Source: a virus | DNA: 64,000 nucleotides | IMG/VR virus record: IMGVR_UViG_3300032053_000043 | Coordinates: 1-64,000 of that record | Strand: one strand, 5' to 3' | Shown: one piece after another, positions 811-8,570 of the stretch | Position numbering within the stretch: position 1 is the stretch's first letter | How the letters are laid out: every line of letters starts with the position of its first letter | The notes under the pieces: generated by a model | Told to the model about the DNA's origin: nothing | What the model saw: only the letters and a program-made list of their open reading frames with translations | The model's database searches: none | Position numbers and translations under genes: made by a program

Positions 811-932
811 ACCGGAGCGGAGCGGTCTTAACTGGCCGCGCTGAAAGGGGGGAAGTGATGTGCAACTGCGGAATAGGCGTCGTCTGTGAAGAATGCCTCA
901 AACGGAATAAGGCAGGACGGAAGGGAACGGTC

Positions 933-2348
933 ATGCCAGAAGCAAGTGAGAAGGCGAGGGAGACAGTGGAAAAGATTGTTGACTACATCCGCACCAACGA
1001 GGCGTGGAACCCCGTGTATTGGTGGGAGTGGCAGCCGGAAATTGCCGCAATCATCGACGCAGAGTTCCCCAACACCCTCAGCCAACTGTCTGCGCTATAC
1101 AGCGATCACGCTGCATGGAGCCAGGTCACGTTTGGCACTGACACAGAACGCGGTCCCCTTGGACCGTTAAAGCATCTCGAAAAGGAGGCGAGAGAAGCGC
1201 AACAGGAGCCGTTCAACGCCTACGAACACGCTGACTGTTTGCTTTTGGTGCTCGACGCCTCACGGCGGTCGGGGTTGACGTTGCAGGCATTGATCCATGC
1301 GGCGGAACAAAAGTTGGCCGTGAACAAGCGGCGGGAATGGCCGAAGGGACAGGAATCTGACGATATGGTACAGCACACTGGGCCGTCGTCCGACACCACC
1401 GAGCAGGTGCGGAAACTGCGGGAGGCGCTGGAACCATTTGCTACCTTCGCAGAAAACTATGTTGATCCTGAAGGGTGGAACGATGTTGGGATTGGTACGT
1501 CACATGAACGTATCGTAGATTGGTTTGGACCATCCGACTTTCGGCAAGCCCGCACCGCCTTGGCCGGGAGCGAAGTGGAGAAGGACAACGTAAAGGGGAA
1601 AGGGTCCATTCCACTCGTTGAGTGGCATAGCCATGTACCGGCGTGCCCCTTTCGCAAGACCTACGGTGCTGAACGTTGTGCTTGCAAGATTACCATTGAG
1701 GAGACCCGCTCGACCAGTTCGCCTATAACTTCACCTGGTTATCCGCTTGGAACTCCCGGTGAAGTACCACCGCCACCACCCACTCCGGCTGAGATTGCGC
1801 GGGAGATTGTTGATCCATTCCATCACGGCAACTTCAGTTCGACTGGAGACCGTGTAGTGCGTGAAATCACCGCCGCCATCCAGTCGGAGCGGGATGGGCA
1901 GGCGAAGCGTATTCTGGCAGCGGTGGAAGTATCGAAGGAGGCTTCTGATGAATGGGAGGTGGTACTACAGAAACGCATCGAGGAACTGAAGAGGCAGTTG
2001 GCTACAGAGACAACAGCCTATGAAGGAATTGCTGAAAAGTACGTGAAGATCATGGACGATCTGTCCCCCTCATCCTGCGGCGTCAAGGGCCATTGCAAGG
2101 TGGATTTAGGTAAGGAGAGGCGGTTGAGTGAGAGGCGCGTCGTGGCACACATCTGTACTCCGTACAGCGGTGACTGTGTCAAGTTCCATCCTGGTCGGGT
2201 TGGTAATCAACGGACTTGGAGGAGTGATAAGCCAGGCAATTCGCGGATTCACGTGAACCGTCGCGTCACCAACTCCGGCGGTTACTGCGTGAGATGCATG
2301 GAGATCAACTGGGCCGTCACCGACGCGCTCGAAGCGGCTGTGGTGTGA
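933..2348 (+). CDS. Mosaic Ea22-like protein with DUF550 / MazG-like dATP/dGTP pyrophosphohydrolase domain; premature TGA, homology continues to 2453
   Basis: HAAWSQVTFG...GPLGPLKHLEKEAREA...EHADCLLLVLDASRRSG...KLAVNKRREWP; shares blocks with 61740-63449; start could be 855. Confidence 0.75.
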   Translation: MPEASEKARETVEKIVDYIRTNEAWNPVYWWEWQPEIAAIIDAEFPNTLSQLSALYSDHAAWSQVTFGTDTERGPLGPLKHLEKEAREAQQEPFNAYEHADCLLLVLDASRRSGLTLQALIHAAEQKLAVNKRREWPKGQESDDMVQHTGPSSDTTEQVRKLREALEPFATFAENYVDPEGWNDVGIGTSHERIVDWFGPSDFRQARTALAGSEVEKDNVKGKGSIPLVEWHSHVPACPFRKTYGAERCACKITIEETRSTSSPITSPGYPLGTPGEVPPPPPTPAEIAREIVDPFHHGNFSSTGDRVVREITAAIQSERDGQAKRILAAVEVSKEASDEWEVVLQKRIEELKRQLATETTAYEGIAEKYVKIMDDLSPSSCGVKGHCKVDLGKERRLSERRVVAHICTPYSGDCVKFHPGRVGNQRTWRSDKPGNSRIHVNRRVTNSGGYCVRCMEINWAVTDALEAAVV

Positions 2349-2449: not shown

Positions 2450-2665
2450 ATGAAAACTCCAAGGTCCAAAGTCGAAAGTCCAAGGGCGCTGACCAACGGT
2501 GAACTCGCCACGTTGATCGACGCCCTGCGAATGGCGGCCAGCGATGCCATGCGCCACATCATGGCGGTCGGTCCCTGGGACTTGATGTTCGGCACCTGGC
2601 ACGGCGCACGAAAGCGCTACCTCGCCCTGCGCCGCAAATTGCTGGCCTGGGAGCGTGCCGCGTGA
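2450..2665 (+). CDS. Hypothetical protein
   Basis: GGAGGAGG RBS, ATG 2450, coupled to the next gene. Confidence 0.6.
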   Translation: MKTPRSKVESPRALTNGELATLIDALRMAASDAMRHIMAVGPWDLMFGTWHGARKRYLALRRKLLAWERAA

Positions 2666-2916
2666 AATCCGCGACCTGTCCCGGCGGAGCCTGGATCCGA
2701 AATCTGCAATCCGCAATCGACTGGCTCTTCGGCTGCCCGCACCCGCGCGAGAGCTTCCCACAGCGCCGGCGCGACCGCCGCAGGCGCATCCAGCACCATC
2801 GCCCGAGTTACCGCGTCTGCCTGGGCTGCGGGCGCGAGCGCGACTATACCCTGCTCGACGCTCCGCAGCCTACAGCCTACGGCCCACGGCCCACAGCCAT
2901 CTTGGAGGTCCGATGA
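2662..2916 (+). CDS. Hypothetical protein (Cys/His motifs)
   Basis: GTGA/ATGA overlaps; WLFGCPH...SFP...YRVCLGCGRE. Confidence 0.6.
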   Translation: MKSATCPGGAWIRNLQSAIDWLFGCPHPRESFPQRRRDRRRRIQHHRPSYRVCLGCGRERDYTLLDAPQPTAYGPRPTAILEVR

Positions 2917-3428
2917 AAACCAAACCACTAGCCGATCTCGACGCCGTCAACAACGCACTCCGCCGGAAGTTGTTGGCCGAGGTGGCCATCGAAGCCATCG
3001 AGGGCCAGCTGGAGCTGGCCATCACGCCGCTCGAGGCTGCGGCCCACGACGAGGCGGCGCCCCACCGCGAGAAGATCGAGGGACTCGATGCCGCCATGCA
3101 CCTCTTCTGGGAGGCGCACCGCGACGGCCCGATAAAAAGCATCCCGCTGACTTTCGGCGTCATTGGGGAACGCAAGGCGCCCGAGAAAACCAGCCTGCGC
3201 AAGGGCTGGAAGATGTCCACCATCGTCGGGTTGATCCAGGGGCTCGGCGATTGGTGGTACGGAAAATTCGTGCGCCAGCCGGAGCCGGAGGTCAACAAAG
3301 AAGCCGTGCTGATGGCCAGCGACGACGAGCTGGAAAAGCTGCGCGCCTGCGGCGTTTCCATCGACCCCGGTGAGCCGGAGTTTTACGCCAAAACGGATCG
3401 CACCACGCTGGCCTCGGCCATGACCTAG
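2913..3428 (+). CDS. gam: Mu Gam-like host-nuclease inhibitor
   Basis: Helical N-terminus followed by KSIPLTFGVIGERK...FVRQPEPEVNKEAVL...EFY, typical of Phage_Mu_Gam; GGAGG RBS. Confidence 0.8.
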   Translation: MKTKPLADLDAVNNALRRKLLAEVAIEAIEGQLELAITPLEAAAHDEAAPHREKIEGLDAAMHLFWEAHRDGPIKSIPLTFGVIGERKAPEKTSLRKGWKMSTIVGLIQGLGDWWYGKFVRQPEPEVNKEAVLMASDDELEKLRACGVSIDPGEPEFYAKTDRTTLASAMT

Positions 3429-4497: not shown

Positions 4498-5808
4498 GTG
4501 CCGGCCTATTACAACGAAAACGATCCCTTCGCGGCTGCCTGGCTGCCGGAACTGATGAAGGCGGGAGTGATTGCCCATGGTGAAGTCGATGAACGCGACA
4601 TCCGAGAAGTGCAACCCGAAGACGTGCGCGGGTTCGCCCAATGCCATTTCTTCGCCGGCATTGGGGTCTGGAATTACGCTCTTCGCCGAGCCGGATGGTC
4701 AGACGATACTCCCGTTTGGACAGGGAGTTGCCCATGCCCGCCGTTCTCCGTCGCTGGGAAGAAGAAGGCATGTCCAGCGTGCAAAGGCCGAAACCCTGTG
4801 CCGCATGTTGGACGAACTGGCTTCTTCGTATGCTGCGTATGCGGCCACGAATGGTTTGCCGATGCCCGCCATCTATGGCCGGAAATGTGGCGACTTATCC
4901 GCGACGGACGACCGCGATGTTTCTGCGGAGAGCAGGTTGCGGGAAGTGACGGCGAAACTTGGCTCGCGGCTGTTCGTGCTTCGTTGGAAATACTCGGATA
5001 TGACATTAGGGCCGCGAGTCTTAACGCTGCGGGCCTCGGGGCGCCGCAGATCCGGCAGCGGCTATACTTCCTGGCCGACACCGCAGGTCAGCGAAGCAAC
5101 CAGGGGCGGGCAAGCCAAACGGGCAGGCGGACGGAAACAAAACCTCAACGATTTCGCGATGCTGGCGAGTTGGCCGACGCCGCAGAGCCACGACGAACGG
5201 GAGCGCGGGAACGTGATGGCGGACCATCATCACTTCCCCCACGACCTGAGCAATGCGGCGAAGATGGCGAGTTGGCCGACGCCGCATACGCCGGACGGCG
5301 GGCGCATTCGGAAATCGCAACCGCATGGGAGCAAACGGCAGGCAGACATCGAGACCGTGGCGAGTTGGGCCACGCCGCGATCGGTCGAGGCGGGACACTC
5401 AACGGGCAATCCGGATCGAGCAGAAGACAGAAAATCGAGATTGGAAGACCAGGTCTTTCTGGCGACTGGTTGGGCCACGCCGAGATCAACGGACGGCGAG
5501 AAGCGTGGGCCGAATCAGCACGGCAGCAAGGGCGATCTGATGCTGCCGAGCCAGGCTTCACTAACGGCTTCTGGGCCGACGCCGAATGGCTCCACTGCCG
5601 CCCCGAGCCAGGATACCCCGACGGCCGCTGGCGGGCAGTTGAACCCGGCACATTCCCGCTGGTTGCAGGGGCTCCCGCCCGAGTGGGACGCCTGCGCGGC
5701 TACGGTAACTCTCTCACGGCGCCGGTCGCGCAAGCCTTCATAGAGGCATATGTTGACGACTGCGGTGAGTACACCCCGGAGTTGGACCGAGAAAAGGGAC
5801 CCGAGTAG
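4498..5808 (+). CDS. Phage DNA (cytosine-5) methyltransferase, main (alpha) frame, with zinc-ribbon insertion
   Basis: Motifs HFFAGIG (I), GSCPCPPFS (IV), GEQV (VI), APQIRQRLYF (VIII), RLRGYGNS (X). Confidence 0.9.
   Translation: MPAYYNENDPFAAAWLPELMKAGVIAHGEVDERDIREVQPEDVRGFAQCHFFAGIGVWNYALRRAGWSDDTPVWTGSCPCPPFSVAGKKKACPACKGRNPVPHVGRTGFFVCCVCGHEWFADARHLWPEMWRLIRDGRPRCFCGEQVAGSDGETWLAAVRASLEILGYDIRAASLNAAGLGAPQIRQRLYFLADTAGQRSNQGRASQTGRRTETKPQRFRDAGELADAAEPRRTGARERDGGPSSLPPRPEQCGEDGELADAAYAGRRAHSEIATAWEQTAGRHRDRGELGHAAIGRGGTLNGQSGSSRRQKIEIGRPGLSGDWLGHAEINGRREAWAESARQQGRSDAAEPGFTNGFWADAEWLHCRPEPGYPDGRWRAVEPGTFPLVAGAPARVGRLRGYGNSLTAPVAQAFIEAYVDDCGEYTPELDREKGPE
4571..5743 (+). CDS. Overlapping alternative-frame polypeptide (MTase beta-like subunit with WPTP repeats and motif IX-like segment)
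   Basis: 390 codons open in a shifted frame inside the MTase gene; five W(P/A)TP repeats and GQLNPAHSRWLQGLPPEW; start uncertain. Confidence 0.7.
   Translation: MPMVKSMNATSEKCNPKTCAGSPNAISSPALGSGITLFAEPDGQTILPFGQGVAHARRSPSLGRRRHVQRAKAETLCRMLDELASSYAAYAATNGLPMPAIYGRKCGDLSATDDRDVSAESRLREVTAKLGSRLFVLRWKYSDMTLGPRVLTLRASGRRRSGSGYTSWPTPQVSEATRGGQAKRAGGRKQNLNDFAMLASWPTPQSHDERERGNVMADHHHFPHDLSNAAKMASWPTPHTPDGGRIRKSQPHGSKRQADIETVASWATPRSVEAGHSTGNPDRAEDRKSRLEDQVFLATGWATPRSTDGEKRGPNQHGSKGDLMLPSQASLTASGPTPNGSTAAPSQDTPTAAGGQLNPAHSRWLQGLPPEWDACAATVTLSRRRSRKPS
5752..5799 (+). repeat. Imperfect 48-bp direct repeat, copy 2
   Basis: Matches 4441-4488; encodes VDDCGEYTPELDREKG. Confidence 0.85.
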
Positions 5809-5840
5809 CACCTAAATCACACGAAAAGGAGAGTAACACG

Positions 5841-6071
5841 ATGGCGCAGAAAGACACAGTGAAAACGGTTAGCGACATGATGCGCGAACTTCAGGCCGAG
5901 ATCGAGGCCGTCAAGAACGGCAAACTCGATGAATCCAAGGCGCGCGTCGTGGCCCGGTTTCGCGGCCTGCAACTGAAGACCGCGGAACTCAACCTGCAAT
6001 TCCAGCGGCTCACCAAGGGGCGGTTGCCCCAAACGGAGATGCCGCTGTTGCAGGCGCCGAAAGCAGCGTAG
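5841..6071 (+). CDS. Small helical hypothetical phage protein; its stop codon overlaps the first array delimiter
   Basis: AAGGAG RBS; 76 aa; TAG 6069-6071. Confidence 0.7.
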   Translation: MAQKDTVKTVSDMMRELQAEIEAVKNGKLDESKARVVARFRGLQLKTAELNLQFQRLTKGRLPQTEMPLLQAPKAA

Positions 6072-6552
6072 CGGCATTATTCGATGCCACGCGATGTGAC
6101 CGGACAAAGCGGCAGGACTAGACTCTATGGCGCAACATGCGACCGAGCGGCGCGACTCTACACGACCAGACTGCACGCAGCGGCTAGACCGCACCGGGTT
6201 GCACATGACCGGACTGGATACCACATAGCGGCTCGATGTGACTAGACAATATGTTACTTTACGGAGCGGCTAGATCGTACACCATGTTATTGGACAAAGC
6301 GGCCCGACAGGGCATGGCCCAACGATACTTAGCGGCACGGCGTGACTGAATCGAACGCAATGGAACGAGACTAACTCGAACGCAGCGGCCCGACAGTAAC
6401 AGTATATGACGAGACACAGCGGCGGGACAGCGTAGCACCGCATGGCATGCGATCCCACCCGACTCAGCGGCACGGTTAGATCGTACTGAACATGATTCCG
6501 CCACACGTAGCGGCTCTGCCGCACTCCGCCAGATTGAACGAGACGTAGCGGC
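6070..6552 (+). ncRNA. Pentamer-periodic guide-like RNA array: 13 AGCGGC delimiters and 12 units of (NN-NRY)n-NN (putative VIPR-like guide array)
   Basis: AGCGGC at 6070, 6108, 6146, 6179, 6227, 6265, 6298, 6331, 6384, 6418, 6466, 6509, 6547; unit lengths 32,32,27,42,32,27,27,47,28,42,37,32; 76/76 pentamers end in Y and 75/76 have R at position 4; no + strand ORF in the track. Confidence 0.85.
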
Positions 6553-6576
6553 CCCACACAACGAAAGGAGACAGAC

Positions 6577-7326
6577 GTGAACTATACAAAAGAGCAACTC
6601 ACCGAAGCGTACATTGCGCGCACGGCGGTTATTACCGCCCAATGCGCCTTTTCAACCGACCTGGTAGGCGGACAACCGGCCGATGAATCCGGAGTCGCCG
6701 CCTACGTGAAGCACCACCTGAAACTCGAAGGTGACGAAGCAACAGCGGCCGTCAAGCGCATTATGGCCGAAGAAATTGGAGAACGCGAGACCACCCCGGA
6801 AACCGGCGAACTGGAAGCCAAACTCAGTTACGGGATCAACGTCATCCGGCGCACCGAACACGGCCCCTGGATTGGGAACTGGATGGTCAAAGCCTGCTTC
6901 AAGCAGGCGGCCTCCCGGCTGCGCATCTTCAAGGAGATCATCGGCACCAAGGGCGACATGGCCGAAGCCGGCCAGGTATCCGCGGTCGGCATCAGCTTGG
7001 TCGAGGCGGATCACCCTGAGCGCATCTATCTGCGCGCCGCGAAACAGGACAAGCCCGCCTCGACCTACTGGCGGAAATTCATGGGACGCGTGCAGACCCC
7101 GCGCGGCGAGAAATCCATCATCCACGATTCGGAATGCGCCGATGCCGGGAGCCGGTTCGCCTTCCAGTACCGACTACTGCCGGGAAAACTGAAAGAAGAC
7201 GATCTGCGCGACATCTGCGCCTGCGCCATGATCGTCGGGCTCGGCAGCGCCAAGGCCCTGGAATGCGGGAAGTTTTCCATGCCCGCGGGATGCACCATCA
7301 ACTTTCCGAACGGGAAGAAAGCCTAA
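6577..7326 (+). CDS. Stand-alone RAMP superfamily (Cas7/Csm3-like) RNA-binding protein; putative Vipr-like effector
   Basis: RAMP motifs in order: AVITAQCAFSTDLVGG, PWIGNWMVKACFKQAA, SECADAGSRFAFQYRL, C-terminal glycine-rich loop GLGSAKALECGKF; AAGGAG RBS and GTG start 24 nt after the array. Confidence 0.8.
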   Translation: MNYTKEQLTEAYIARTAVITAQCAFSTDLVGGQPADESGVAAYVKHHLKLEGDEATAAVKRIMAEEIGERETTPETGELEAKLSYGINVIRRTEHGPWIGNWMVKACFKQAASRLRIFKEIIGTKGDMAEAGQVSAVGISLVEADHPERIYLRAAKQDKPASTYWRKFMGRVQTPRGEKSIIHDSECADAGSRFAFQYRLLPGKLKEDDLRDICACAMIVGLGSAKALECGKFSMPAGCTINFPNGKKA

Positions 7327-7382
7327 CAATGACAAATCCGAAAAACCACCCTCTCCTCTCTTTCATTGAGGAGGATACCACC

Positions 7383-8570
7383 ATGGCCCGAAGACCTCTG
7401 CAGAAAAAGGGATACCTGAAACAGATTGGCCCGAGTTGGTTTTTGCGCTGGCATGAGGATGTTCGCCTGGCCGATGGCACGATAGCGCGCGCCCACCCCG
7501 GCCGCGTGATCGCCCCGGCCGAAGGCCCCGGAGCCCTCAGCCACCGCGAAGCCAGCCGGCTCGCCTGGACCGAAATTCTCAGCAAACTCGATAGCTACAC
7601 CTGCCACCCCGGCTCCATCATCACCTTGCGCGAATTCATCGAGGCGAAATTCCAGCCCCAGGTCATCAACAAGCGGCACCCCGGCGGACAAGAACATTGG
7701 AAAACCATGCTGGGCCACATCCTGCCGGCGCTGGGCGCCATCGAACTGCGCGCCTTCAGCCTTGACCGCGTACAGCGGTTCCTGGACGGCAAGGCTCAGG
7801 AGACCTTCAGGGGCCGGCGGTATTCGGTCCAAACGCTCGTTCACTTACGGAACGCCCTCACCAGGATCTTCCGCCGCGCACGCAACCTGGACCTTTTCCC
7901 GGCCGACCGGACGCTGCCCACCGACGGCCTTGAACTACCGCCCATGCACCGGAAGGAACGGGGCTCCCTGACCATCGGCCAGGTGCGGGGCCTGATGGCG
8001 GTCCTGGATTCGCCCGTCCGTGAGCTCGTCCTGTTTCTGAGCGTGACCGGCTGCCGCATCAGTGAGGCGCTGGGGCTCCGGTGGGACCGGGTAGACTTCG
8101 ACCGCGCGCAGATCGTAAAGCGTGAGACATTCCGCCGCGGGCGGTGGGGGACCCTGAAGTCGGACGCCAGCCGGCGCAACATCCCGGTGCCCGATGAACT
8201 GCTGACCGAACTCGCCCGGCTGAAGTCGAGAACGCGCTGGAACGCCCCCGGGCACCCCGTCTTCGCCTGCCAGAGCACCGGCACGCCGCTTTCCGCGGCC
8301 AACATCCAGGCGCGCGTCCTGAAGCCCAAGGCGAGGCTGCTGGGTGTGCCGGCGGGGGTCTCTTGGCATTGGCTGAGACACGCCAACAGCACATGGCTGG
8401 CGGCCGGCGGGGTCAACACAACCGACCGGCGGCTACTCCACGGGCACACCTCGGACGAAATGGACGCACTCTACACGCACGGCAACCCGGAGGCGGTTCG
8501 CCAGGCCATGCAGTCGCTCACCAAGTCACTGCTGAAAGGGGATTCCGATGGCCGAAACATCGTTATGTGA
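7383..8570 (+). CDS. int: Tyrosine recombinase / phage integrase
   Basis: TGCRISEALGLRW (R), TLKS (K), HWLRH (HxxR), LHGHTS, LYTH (Y); GAGGAGG RBS; alternative start 7329. Confidence 0.93.
   Translation: MARRPLQKKGYLKQIGPSWFLRWHEDVRLADGTIARAHPGRVIAPAEGPGALSHREASRLAWTEILSKLDSYTCHPGSIITLREFIEAKFQPQVINKRHPGGQEHWKTMLGHILPALGAIELRAFSLDRVQRFLDGKAQETFRGRRYSVQTLVHLRNALTRIFRRARNLDLFPADRTLPTDGLELPPMHRKERGSLTIGQVRGLMAVLDSPVRELVLFLSVTGCRISEALGLRWDRVDFDRAQIVKRETFRRGRWGTLKSDASRRNIPVPDELLTELARLKSRTRWNAPGHPVFACQSTGTPLSAANIQARVLKPKARLLGVPAGVSWHWLRHANSTWLAAGGVNTTDRRLLHGHTSDEMDALYTHGNPEAVRQAMQSLTKSLLKGDSDGRNIVM

What the first reader, a model, noticed from the sequence alone, without database searches (positions are those of the whole stretch)
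6076..6546. Decoded dinucleotide guides give a concrete target-search hypothesis
Reading only the free NN of each pentamer gives: u1 AT.TC.GC.GC.GT.CG.AA; u2 AG.TA.TC.GG.AA.GC.CG; u3 GC.TC.AC.CA.TG.GC; u4 TA.CG.CG.TG.AT.CG.TG.AC.AT; u5 TC.GT.TA.AA.GT.TT.GG; u6 TA.CG.AC.GT.TG.AA; u7 CC.AG.AT.CC.GA.TT; u8 AC.GT.TG.CG.GC.GG.GA.TA.CG.GC; u9 CC.(A)GT.AG.AT.GA.AC; u10 GG.AG.AG.CG.GG.GC.CC.CC.TC; u11 AC.TA.CG.TG.AT.TC.CA.GT; u12 TC.CG.TC.CA.TG.GA.GT. All 12 differ and carry 12-20 informative nt. If one target base is skipped between dinucleotides, recognition could be blind to one codon position. Position 3 is only about half G, so a 3-nt readout (NNN plus an RY scaffold) is an alternative code to test.
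Basis: inference. Interest (0 to 1): 0.8.

Follow-up and report, generated by a model that had tools for sequence, protein, structure and literature searches.

The report
Phage VIPR guide array, A-handle variant
This sediment phage carries a divergent VIPR system (a CRISPR-related kind first described in 2026): a lone Cas7-like protein plus 12 short guide RNAs written two letters in every five; related arrays show that the code skips every third target base, but no target of these 12 guides was found.

Summary

The array sits between a small conserved ORF and a 249-aa protein whose confident model is a Csm3/Cas7-type RAMP. About 40 related viral and metagenomic loci carry the same gene plus a 5-nt-periodic array on the same strand.

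This is the VIPR kind (bioRxiv 2026: Vipr RAMP plus GGY/NN vrRNAs, target read as NNx).

I tested it within this clade. Of 75 long guides, three match vipr genes with at most 1 mismatch at gap 1. None do at gap 0 or 2, and shuffled guides give about 0. All three hits put the skipped base on the wobble position.

The window's own 12 guides have no self-target, and exact scans of IMG/VR and GTDB genomes gave only chance-level hits.

Differences from published VIPR: A replaces the second G of the handle, units are short (6-10 NN) and separated only by 6-nt delimiters with no tail, and there is no sequence similarity to SUSP1 Vipr.

This scan noted the same design earlier on other DNA. Verdict: a new variant of a known kind.

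The parts
5841..6071 (+). Small helical ORF (76 aa); candidate accessory (vap-like) gene
   Evidence: Homologues lie about 0.9 kb upstream of the RAMP gene, before the array and on the same strand, in 10 loci. The L006 copy carries a C-terminal zinc ribbon. No Pfam, PHROG, NCBIfam or PADLOC match. No similarity to SUSP1 vap1. Its nearest ESM Atlas clusters are 93-100% viral.
6070..6552 (+). vrRNA-type guide array: 13 AGCGGC delimiters bounding 12 units of NN-N-A-Y pentamers
   Evidence: for anatomy. It is the only 5-nt A-Y periodic tract in the 75-kb genome. No Rfam family matches. The RNA folds no better than shuffles (z 0.26). The array varies between sediment samples by unit replacement, pentamer-multiple indels and NN substitutions.
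6070..6107 (+). u1: AT.TC.GC.GC.GT.CG.AA (7 NN)
6108..6145 (+). u2: AG.TA.TC.GG.AA.GC.CG (7 NN)
6146..6178 (+). u3: GC.TC.AC.CA.TG.GC (6 NN)
6179..6226 (+). u4: TA.CG.CG.TG.AT.CG.TG.AC.AT (9 NN)
   Evidence: At gap 1 there are 0 exact hits in IMG/VR. There are 16 hits in GTDB genomes, of which 15 are out of the wobble phase and fall in housekeeping genes of unrelated taxa, so they are chance matches.
6227..6264 (+). u5: TC.GT.TA.AA.GT.TT.GG (7 NN)
   Evidence: The first NN (6233-6234) differs in other samples.
6265..6297 (+). u6: TA.CG.AC.GT.TG.AA (6 NN)
   Evidence: From 6271 onward, u6-u9 are replaced by 84 other letters in the contigs of runs X3 and X2.
6298..6330 (+). u7: CC.AG.AT.CC.GA.TT (6 NN)
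6331..6383 (+). u8: AC.GT.TG.CG.GC.GG.GA.TA.CG.GC (10 NN); contains an off-pattern pentamer, TAACT
   Evidence: There are 0 exact gap-1 hits in IMG/VR and in GTDB genomes. In other samples TAACT reads TGAAT, which is the canonical form. 6351-6400 is a 25-nt internal duplication.
6384..6417 (+). u9: CC.(A)GT.AG.AT.GA.AC (6 NN, with a 1-nt phase slip)
   Evidence: Other samples lack 6 nt at 6393, which makes the unit 28 nt and puts it in phase.
6418..6465 (+). u10: GG.AG.AG.CG.GG.GC.CC.CC.TC (9 NN)
   Evidence: There is one exact gap-1 hit in IMG/VR (L144, a polymerase-like ORF), but the skipped base falls on codon position 2, so it is probably chance.
6466..6508 (+). u11: AC.TA.CG.TG.AT.TC.CA.GT (8 NN)
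   Evidence: There are 6 exact gap-1 hits in IMG/VR and all are off-phase.
6509..6546 (+). u12: TC.CG.TC.CA.TG.GA.GT (7 NN)
   Evidence: Runs X2 and X3 lack exactly two pentamers (10 nt) at 6514.
6547..6576 (+). Last delimiter, two pentamers, and the conserved AACGAAAGGAG leader/ribosome-binding site of the RAMP gene
   Evidence: The same ending (AGCGGC-AAAAC-GAAA-GGAG) is seen in L001 and L006.
6577..7326 (+). Vipr-like lone RAMP (Cas7/Csm3 fold), 249 aa
   Evidence: The AF2 model has pLDDT 91 and pTM 0.84. Foldseek's best match is Csm3 at E 1e-7, followed by Cmr4 and type VII/IV Cas7. VIA gives Z 10.2. C-terminal G-loop is GLGSAKxLExGKF. 243 unnamed homologues were found, and the nearest ESM Atlas clusters are 94-100% viral. 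No other cas gene lies nearby.

Best explanation
The array is the guide-RNA array of a divergent VIPR system.

Proposed mechanism:
- The tract 6070-6552 is transcribed with the downstream gene on the + strand and is presumably cut at or near the AGCGGC delimiters into 33-53-nt units.
- Copies of the 249-aa Vipr-like RAMP (6577-7326) bind one per pentamer. Each sequesters the N-A-Y handle and presents the NN dinucleotide.
- The 6-10 NN of a unit pair with double-stranded DNA in which every third base is skipped (NNx). In genes the skipped base is the codon wobble position.
- Binding is expected to silence genes of competing phages or other mobile elements.

What is shown: the anatomy, the RAMP fold, the gene-array linkage, the rapid turnover of NN and of whole units, and the 1-nt-skip match of related guides to vipr genes on both DNA strands.

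What is inferred from the published SUSP1 system: filament assembly, handle sequestration, DNA (not RNA) binding and repression.

What is unknown: the targets of these 12 guides, how the units are processed, and the role of the 76-aa ORF.
For: Anatomy:
- 12 units of strict 5-nt phase, with position 5 a pyrimidine in 71 of 71 pentamers, position 4 A in 60 of 71, and positions 1-2 free.

Protein:
- The adjacent protein is a confident Csm3/Cas7-like RAMP with a G-loop, and no other cas gene is nearby.

Linkage:
- 39 of 55 related loci carry an A-Y/5-nt array up- or downstream of the homologue. On the gene strand this is the rule; opposite-strand signal appears in only 3 loci (L011, L037, L038).

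Published mechanism:
- VIPR systems work by handle/NN pentamers, one protomer per repeat and a 1-nt-skip target.

Code test within this clade:
- 75 guides with 8 or more NN were searched against 56 vipr genes. At most 1 mismatch was reached by 3 guides at gap 1, 0 at gap 0, 0 at gap 2, and about 0 shuffled guides.
- The hits are L006 unit 3874 (18 of 18), L014 unit 1348 (19 of 20) and L033 unit 4873 (15 of 16, and 8 of 8 at codon level in 6 proteins). They spell MVQACIKQA, IHHSECIEPG and NWMIKACL.
- 6 of 7 hits put the skipped base on the wobble position.
- The L014 guide has the same sense as the coding strand, so it cannot pair with the mRNA. This argues for a DNA target (inference).

Turnover:
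- L026 and L028 have vipr genes 97.3% identical but entirely different arrays.
- Between sediment samples, this array shows unit replacement, indels of 10 nt (two pentamers), and 7 of 11 listed SNPs at NN. The handle changes are conservative (C>T at position 5, C>A restoring A at position 4).

No self-targeting:
- The window's guides have no self-target, as reported for published systems.
Against: - The handle is N-A-Y. The published consensus forms are YNNGG, NNNGG, YNNNG and NNNNG, all of which keep a G where this clade has A.
- There is no detectable sequence similarity to SUSP1 Vipr (hhalign probability 2%) or to any GenBank phage.
- Units are shorter than the published 9-16 repeats and have no 3' tail or pseudoknot.
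- No target was found for any of the 12 guides.
- There are no expression data.
- The in-clade support rests on a handful of guides, all aimed at vipr genes, because that is what the small local database contained.
Confidence: 0.85

Rival explanations
1. Same system, different code. In this clade only A-Y is the sequestered handle, and three bases per pentamer (NNN) are read against three contiguous target bases, with the third pair tolerating G:U. The target would then be contiguous rather than gapped.
For: Position 3 is G in only 48% of pentamers in the window and 42% across the clade, whereas the first handle G (G1) of the published GGY motif is conserved. In four validated guide-target pairs, position 3 is identical to the 'skipped' base at 13 of 30 positions and identical or G:U-compatible at 21-23 of 30, against about 14 expected (P 0.0006-0.0035 by within-pair shuffles). 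The VIPR paper lists NNNGG-type repeats.
Against: The test was designed after seeing the data and uses four guides. The perfect 18 of 18 L006 hit has only 2 of 8 identical third bases. G remains twice as common as any other base at position 3, which suggests a residual handle role. A guide copied from a target allele that is not in the database would give the same pattern.
Confidence: 0.2
2. The tract is a protein-titrating or regulatory leader RNA of the TRAP or CsrB type. The periodic triplets would be the binding sites and the NN mere spacers with no information.
For: TRAP binds (G/U)AG triplets separated by 2-3 free bases (my own knowledge). The array runs directly into the ribosome-binding site of the RAMP gene.
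Against: Arrays lie downstream of the gene as often as upstream. Three related guides match vipr genes over their full length at P about 1e-6 to 1e-3 each, at gap 1 only and in codon phase. Whole-array replacement beside a 97%-identical gene is not what a regulatory leader would be expected to show.
Confidence: 0.04
3. The tract consists of DNA-level repeats: arm-type or accessory sites for the neighbouring tyrosine integrase, iterons, or a partition site.
For: A tyrosine integrase gene follows the RAMP gene here and in L004.
Against: Most related loci have no integrase next to the array. The repeats are strictly strand-asymmetric and co-oriented with the RAMP gene. A 5-bp period would place successive sites on opposite faces of duplex DNA.
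Confidence: 0.03
4. The array is a decoy: it soaks up a rival phage's Vipr or misdirects it, as the satellite-borne solo vrRNAs do.
For: Solo vrRNAs that redirect a helper phage's VIPR are published.
Against: This phage encodes its own Vipr-like gene immediately downstream, and the gene-array pairing is the rule across the clade.
Confidence: 0.05

Closest known systems
VIPR systems (Vipr RAMP + vrRNA), e.g. type II of Escherichia phage SUSP1, NC_028808.2 28474-29061 (bioRxiv 10.64898/2026.04.26.720920, 10.64898/2026.04.26.720927, 10.64898/2026.10.15.759431)
   Same: - Phage-borne, with a single small RAMP carrying a G-loop and no other cas genes.
- Flanking non-coding pentanucleotide repeats with a 3-nt handle ending in a pyrimidine and two hypervariable bases.
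- Guides match targets as NNx with the skipped base on the wobble position, on either DNA strand.
- Some guides aim at rivals' vipr genes.
- No self-targeting by this window's guides.
   Different: - The handle is N-A-Y (A 85%, first base G only 48%) instead of G-G-Y.
- The G-loop reads GLGSAK..GKF where SUSP1 has GVGDWR..GRF. The Asp and Trp that read the two G's correspond here to Ser and Ala. This rests on a manual motif match and is an inference.
- The protein is 249 aa against 195 aa, with no sequence-level similarity.
- Units have 6-10 NN against 9-16 repeats.
- Units abut through a 6-nt AGCGGC delimiter, with no tail or pseudoknot.
- The candidate accessory gene is an unrelated 76-aa helical protein.
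- I could not assign the system to one of the seven published types.
Class 1 CRISPR-Cas backbone filaments (Csm3/Cmr4/Cas7 on crRNA; type III, IV, VII)
   Same: The closest solved folds (Foldseek E 1e-7, VIA Z about 10). Both involve a periodic RNA-bound filament with thumb-induced base flipping.
   Different: - No CRISPR repeats, and no cas1/cas2, Cas5, Cas6 or a large subunit.
- The guide period is 5 nt with only 2 (perhaps 3) bases read, instead of 5 of every 6.
- The 'spacers' obey a pentamer grammar, so they cannot be captured fragments of invader DNA.
TIGR-Tas tandem interspaced guide RNA arrays (recalled from memory, not tested here)
   Same: Phage-associated, compact non-CRISPR guide arrays with split recognition.
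   Different: TIGR-Tas uses a Nop-domain protein rather than a RAMP, fixed 36-nt units with two contiguous spacers, and has no pentamer periodicity.

Membership tests
VIPR | Lone RAMP protein (RRM core, G-loop, thumb) without other cas genes | tested here: met
   The AF2 model has pLDDT 91. Its best structural matches are Csm3, Cmr4 and Cas7. The G-loop is GLGSAKxLExGKF. The neighbouring genes are a methylase, a small ORF and an integrase.
VIPR | Encoded mainly by phages or proviruses | tested here: met
   The window lies in a 75-kb IMG/VR virus record, and Mu Gam, integrase and tail genes are present. The nearest ESM Atlas clusters of the protein are 94-100% viral.
VIPR | Flanking non-coding pentanucleotide tandem repeats in which a conserved handle alternates with hypervariable NN | tested here: met
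   for this window. 39 of 55 related loci carry such an array. NN hypervariability is seen between samples and between close relatives.
VIPR | Handle consensus GGY, or a listed variant that keeps a G (YNNGG, NNNGG, YNNNG, NNNNG) | tested here: not met
   Position 4 is A in 60 of 71 pentamers and G in 10 of 71. Across the clade it is A 73% and G 16%. The pyrimidine at position 5 is kept (71 of 71).
VIPR | Target read as NNx (1-nt skip), with the skipped base usually on the codon wobble position | tested here: met
   Met for the clade: 3 of 75 long guides at gap 1 against 0 at gaps 0 and 2 and about 0 for shuffles, and 6 of 7 hits in wobble phase. For the window's own 12 guides the test is inconclusive, because no target was found.
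VIPR | Sequence or structural homology of the protein to characterised Vipr proteins | tested here: inconclusive
   hhalign of the family profile against SUSP1 Vipr gives a probability of 2%, aligning only helix-1 (G..WM.KAC.K with G..EM.EAC.K).
VIPR | Conserved 3' tail or pseudoknot capping each vrRNA (type II) | tested here: not met
   Units abut through AGCGGC alone. The array folds no better than shuffles (z 0.26). The paper also describes tail-less 'staggered' arrays.
VIPR | vrRNAs are expressed and co-purify with Vipr | not testable with these tools
   No RNA run holds the stretch.
VIPR | Accessory vap gene | tested here: inconclusive
   A 76-aa ORF is conserved in 10 loci upstream of the array, and one copy is fused to a zinc ribbon. 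It is unrelated to SUSP1 vap1.
CRISPR-Cas (class 1) | Array of identical direct repeats with unconstrained spacers, plus adaptation and other effector genes | tested here: not met
   The delimiter is 6 nt, the 'spacers' obey a pentamer grammar, and no cas1, cas2, cas5, cas6 or cas10 was found.

The most novel reading that the evidence does not exclude
This A-handle clade may use a different readout from published VIPR. Only A-Y would be sequestered, and three bases per pentamer would pair with three contiguous target bases, the third pair tolerating G:U. That would be a contiguous-target, wobble-tolerant code carried by very short (30-50 nt) delimiter-bounded guides. At least one phage (L006) also carries a guide that matches its own vipr gene perfectly, which could be autoregulation.
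Probability: 0.2. Interest if true: 0.75.

Novelty: new variant of a known kind. Interest (0 to 1): 0.55.

Why it matters
VIPR was described only in 2026, and its code was established on one E. coli phage clade with GGY handles. This locus shows three things.

- A clade with no detectable sequence similarity to SUSP1 Vipr, found in uncultured phages of sediment and other environmental metagenomes, uses a different handle (N-A-Y) and much more compact, delimiter-separated arrays.
- Guides of this clade nevertheless obey the same 1-nt-skip, wobble-blind rule and attack rivals' vipr genes. This is independent computational support for the generality of the code.
- The clade is a natural experiment on how handle specificity is set. 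In a motif-level alignment, the G-loop Asp and Trp that read the two G's in SUSP1 correspond here to Ser and Ala.

Guides of 12-20 informative bases bounded by 6-nt delimiters would also be attractive for multiplexed programmable repression. The relaxed third position raises the testable possibility of a 3-nt readout.

Tried and rejected
- **Rfam:** a search of 5000-8000 at E up to 1 gave no family.
- **Promoter/terminator scan:** nothing found. This is uninformative for an unknown host.
- **Single-protein locus searches:** no relatives were found in viral or genome collections. Alignment-based searches were needed.
- **GenBank phages:** tblastn against 50,697 records gave no hit.
- **SUSP1:** an HMM search of the genome with the family profile found nothing. 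hhalign against SUSP1 Vipr gave a probability of 2%.
- **Protein family libraries:** NCBIfam and PADLOC gave nothing significant.
- **Window guides against Vipr proteins:** at codon level, against the 262 stored proteins (almost all Vipr homologues), the best matches equal shuffled controls.
- **Window guides against the phage's own genome:** at gaps 0-3 the best matches equal shuffled controls.
- **Exact gap-1 collection scans**:
  - u4: 0 hits in IMG/VR; 16 in GTDB genomes, 15 of them off-phase and in housekeeping genes.
  - u8: 0 hits in both.
  - u10: 1 hit in IMG/VR, off-phase.
  - u11: 6 hits in IMG/VR, all off-phase.
  - These scans cannot allow mismatches, so a target with 80-95% NN match would be missed.
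- **All guides with 6 or more NN against vipr genes:** there is no bulk enrichment at any gap, because 12-nt codes match by chance. Only the long guides are informative.
- **Expression:** no RNA holder is listed for the stretch.
- **TRAP-like, iteron or attP readings:** considered first and then rejected (see the rival explanations).
- **Host:** the integrase's best relatives are about 30% identical and lie in Acidobacteriaceae MAGs. This is too weak to name a host, so I did not run host-pangenome pattern searches.
Full report
**1. The observation**

The + strand between 6070 and 6552 holds 13 copies of AGCGGC. Their spacings are 38, 38, 33, 48, 38, 33, 33, 53, 34, 48, 43 and 38 nt, so 11 of 12 equal 5k+3. 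Elsewhere in the window the hexamer occurs at 0.52 per kb. Eleven of twelve spacings falling in one residue class mod 5 has a probability of about 1e-6.

The sequence between anchors parses into pentamers. From 71 in-phase pentamers:
- Positions 1 and 2 are close to uniform.
- Position 3 is G in 34.
- Position 4 is A in 60 and G in 10.
- Position 5 is C in 48 and T in 23, so it is never a purine.

An A-Y-every-5 detector fires only at 6001-6600 on the + strand in the whole 75-kb genome. Rfam has no match, and the RNA folds no better than shuffles (z 0.26).

**2. Context**

The window is the first 64 kb of a 75,103-bp IMG/VR virus record. It is held by contigs of several sediment metagenomes.

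The genes around the array are, in order:
- Mu Gam (2655-3428)
- a C5 DNA methylase (4498-5808)
- a 76-aa ORF (5841-6071)
- the array
- a 249-aa ORF (6577-7326)
- a tyrosine integrase (ending at 8570)

The 249-aa protein has no Pfam, PHROG, NCBIfam or PADLOC family. It has 243 unnamed homologues and 145 representatives at the 50% identity level.

Its AlphaFold model is confident (pLDDT 91, pTM 0.84). The best structural matches are the crRNA-backbone RAMPs:
- Csm3 (Foldseek E 1e-7; VIA Z 10.2)
- Cmr4
- type VII and type IV Cas7
- gRAMP domains

The family alignment ends in a RAMP-type glycine loop, GLGSAKxLExGKF.

**3. The gene and the array travel together**

I fetched 8 viral loci, 1 MAG locus and 46 metagenomic loci that encode homologues of 24-63% identity.
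- In 39 of these 55 loci an A-Y/5-nt periodic tract lies directly upstream or downstream of the gene. It is essentially always on the gene's strand (opposite-strand signal in only 3 loci).
- Most use (A/G)GCGGC delimiters at 5k+3 spacing. Over 35 loci, 432 units and 2,303 pentamers, position 4 is A 73% and G 16%, position 5 is C 76% and T 19%, and position 3 is G 42%.
- The 24%-identical L008 has a 1.5-kb array with TGCGAC delimiters and very clean NN(G/A/T)AC pentamers.
- The 76-aa ORF recurs before the array in 10 loci, once fused to a zinc ribbon.
- The integrase is a neighbour here and in L004 only.

**4. What it is**

Two routes led to the same papers: a note from an earlier agent of this scan and a literature search. 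The three 2026 preprints describe VIPR systems as follows.
- A phage-encoded lone RAMP (Vipr) works with vrRNAs made of GGY/NN pentamers.
- One protomer binds each repeat. It flips out and sequesters GGY and presents the NN.
- The NN pair with dsDNA in which one base is skipped (NNx), usually the codon wobble base.
- Targets are competing phages, satellites and rivals' vipr genes.

**5. Testing the code in this clade**

I parsed 342 well-formed units from the window and 35 loci. I scored them at gaps 0-3 on both strands against a 1.18-Mb local database: the phage genome, all VIPR loci and 79 integrase loci.

For guides with 7 or more NN, the whole-database counts of hits with at most 1 mismatch were:

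| Gap | Observed | Shuffled |
|---|---|---|
| 1 | 58 | 25 |
| 0 | 37 | 28 |
| 2 | 43 | 32 |

The top gap-1 hits all fell in vipr genes.

Restricting to 75 guides with 8 or more NN against 56 vipr genes (80.7 kb), the number of guides reaching at most 1 mismatch was:

| Gap | Guides |
|---|---|
| 0 | 0 |
| 1 | 3 |
| 2 | 0 |
| 3 | 1 (probably the guide matching array sequence inside the 720-nt gene window; not checked) |
| Shuffled | 0-0.05 |

The three gap-1 hits are:
- L006 unit 3874: 18 of 18, antisense, on MVQACIKQA of its own vipr gene.
- L014 unit 1348: 19 of 20, sense, on IHHSECIEPG of L011.
- L033 unit 4873: 15 of 16, antisense, on NWMIKACL of L029 and L030. At codon level it is perfect in six other homologues.

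Further points from these hits:
- Each match runs from the first NN after one delimiter to the last NN before the next, so the unit is the guide.
- Six of seven hits with at most 1 mismatch put the skipped base on the wobble position, where one third would be expected.
- Because the L014 guide has the sense of the coding strand, it cannot pair with the mRNA. This fits DNA targeting (inference).
- With all guides of 6 or more NN there is no bulk enrichment, because 12-nt codes match by chance.

**6. The window's own guides**

- None matches the phage's own genome better than shuffled codes at any gap.
- None matches the 262 stored proteins (almost all Vipr homologues) at codon level.
- Exact gap-1 scans of IMG/VR gave 0 hits for u4, 0 for u8, 1 for u10 and 6 for u11.
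- Exact gap-1 scans of 185,579 species genomes gave 16 hits for u4 and 0 for u8.
- Of those 23 hits, only one has the skipped base on the wobble position. Several sit in housekeeping genes of unrelated taxa, such as an ORF with the peptide KGGYFPVPPVDSLHD (three hits). They are chance matches.

These scans allow no mismatch. Natural targets at 80-95% NN match, or targets absent from these collections, would be missed. The targets therefore remain unknown.

**7. Evolution of the array**

- L026 and L028 have vipr genes 97.3% identical and an identical upstream region, yet completely different sets of units.
- L017 and L018 have identical vipr genes and differ by one added unit and one changed pentamer.

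Contigs from four other sediment runs, laid on 5600-7600, show this array in flux:
- 146 nt (6271-6416) are replaced by 84 other letters.
- There is a 6371-to-6524 deletion.
- There is a 10-nt (two-pentamer) deletion in u12.
- A 6-nt deletion restores u9 to 28 nt, which is in phase.
- Of the 11 listed SNPs in the array, seven are at NN and two at position 3. The two in the A-Y core are conservative or restoring: C>T at position 5, and C>A at position 4, which helps turn the odd TAACT into TGAAT.

This is the pattern expected if the handle is constrained and the NN carry changeable information.

**8. How it differs from published VIPR**

- The published repeat forms (YNNGG, NNNGG, YNNNG, NNNNG) all keep a G where this clade has A. 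The pyrimidine is kept.
- In the SUSP1 structure, D177 and W178 of the G-loop read the two G's, and R179 helps form the pyrimidine pocket. A motif-level match of SUSP1 'GVGDWRPRFGRF' to 'GLGSAKALECGKF' puts Ser, Ala and Lys at those places. That would fit a relaxed first base, a changed second base and a retained pyrimidine. This is inference only.
- hhalign sees no significant similarity (probability 2%). The single aligned stretch is helix-1, which forms part of the pyrimidine pocket in SUSP1.
- Units are short (6-10 NN here; the clade mode is 5-6) and are separated only by a 6-nt delimiter, with no tail.
- I could not place the clade in one of the seven published types, because the figures and supplements are not held.

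**9. The 3-nt alternative**

In the four guides with credible vipr targets, pentamer position 3 equals the 'skipped' base at 13 of 30 positions. It is equal or G:U-compatible at 21-23 of 30, against about 14 expected from within-pair shuffles (P 0.0006-0.0035). The G:U criterion was chosen after seeing the data and the sample is tiny. A guide derived from an unseen target allele would look the same. I treat this as a lead, not a result.

**10. Verdict**

The locus is a divergent A-handle, delimiter-separated variant of VIPR. Its code I could verify in silico for the clade. The targets of this particular array remain unidentified.

Earlier notes of this scan describe the same AGCGGC-NN-(NAC-NN)n design with a lone RAMP in other genomes.

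Noticed in passing
L006 3874-3921 versus L006 4307-4332: A guide in the array of viral contig L006 matches that phage's own vipr gene 18 of 18 at gap 1 (antisense, on MVQACIKQA, skipped base on the wobble position). The published systems reported no self-targeting. This could be autoregulation, or an anti-rival guide that also hits its own gene.
   Followed up: partly
L026 3248-3490 versus L028 4512-4875: Two metagenomic phages have vipr genes 97.3% identical and an identical upstream region, yet entirely different guide sets. The whole array has been replaced, as happens in CRISPR arrays between strains.
   Followed up: partly
window 6270-6530: Other sediment samples carry variants of this array: a 146-nt stretch swapped for 84 other letters, a deletion joining 6371 to 6524, a two-pentamer deletion at 6514 and a 6-nt deletion at 6393. 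SNPs are concentrated at NN positions.
   Followed up: partly
window 6351-6400: A 25-nt internal tandem duplication (TRF, 76% match) spans the u8/u9 boundary. One copy reads AATGGA where the other reads AGCGGC, so delimiters may arise or decay by point mutation of duplicated pentamers.
   Followed up: no
L008 4450-5900: A 24%-identical homologue is followed by a 1.5-kb, very regular array with TGCGAC delimiters and NN(G/A/T)AC pentamers. It looks like a sister design with a different delimiter.
   Followed up: no
window 1-27000 versus 28000-62000: G+C drops from about 0.60-0.68 to about 0.47-0.53, and GC3 from about 0.7-0.8 to about 0.45-0.55, near 27-28 kb. The contig may be a mosaic phage or a chimeric assembly. 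The VIPR locus lies in the high-GC part.
   Followed up: no
window 7134-7326: The longest integrase ORF overlaps the 3' end of the RAMP gene by 193 nt, and its Pfam and PHROG matches begin after residue 79. The true integrase start is probably downstream of 7326.
   Followed up: no
window 855-2348: A 497-aa protein carries a DUF550-type dATP/dGTP pyrophosphohydrolase domain. It lies upstream of Mu Gam and the C5 methylase, in what looks like an early anti-defence or nucleotide-metabolism cluster.
   Followed up: no
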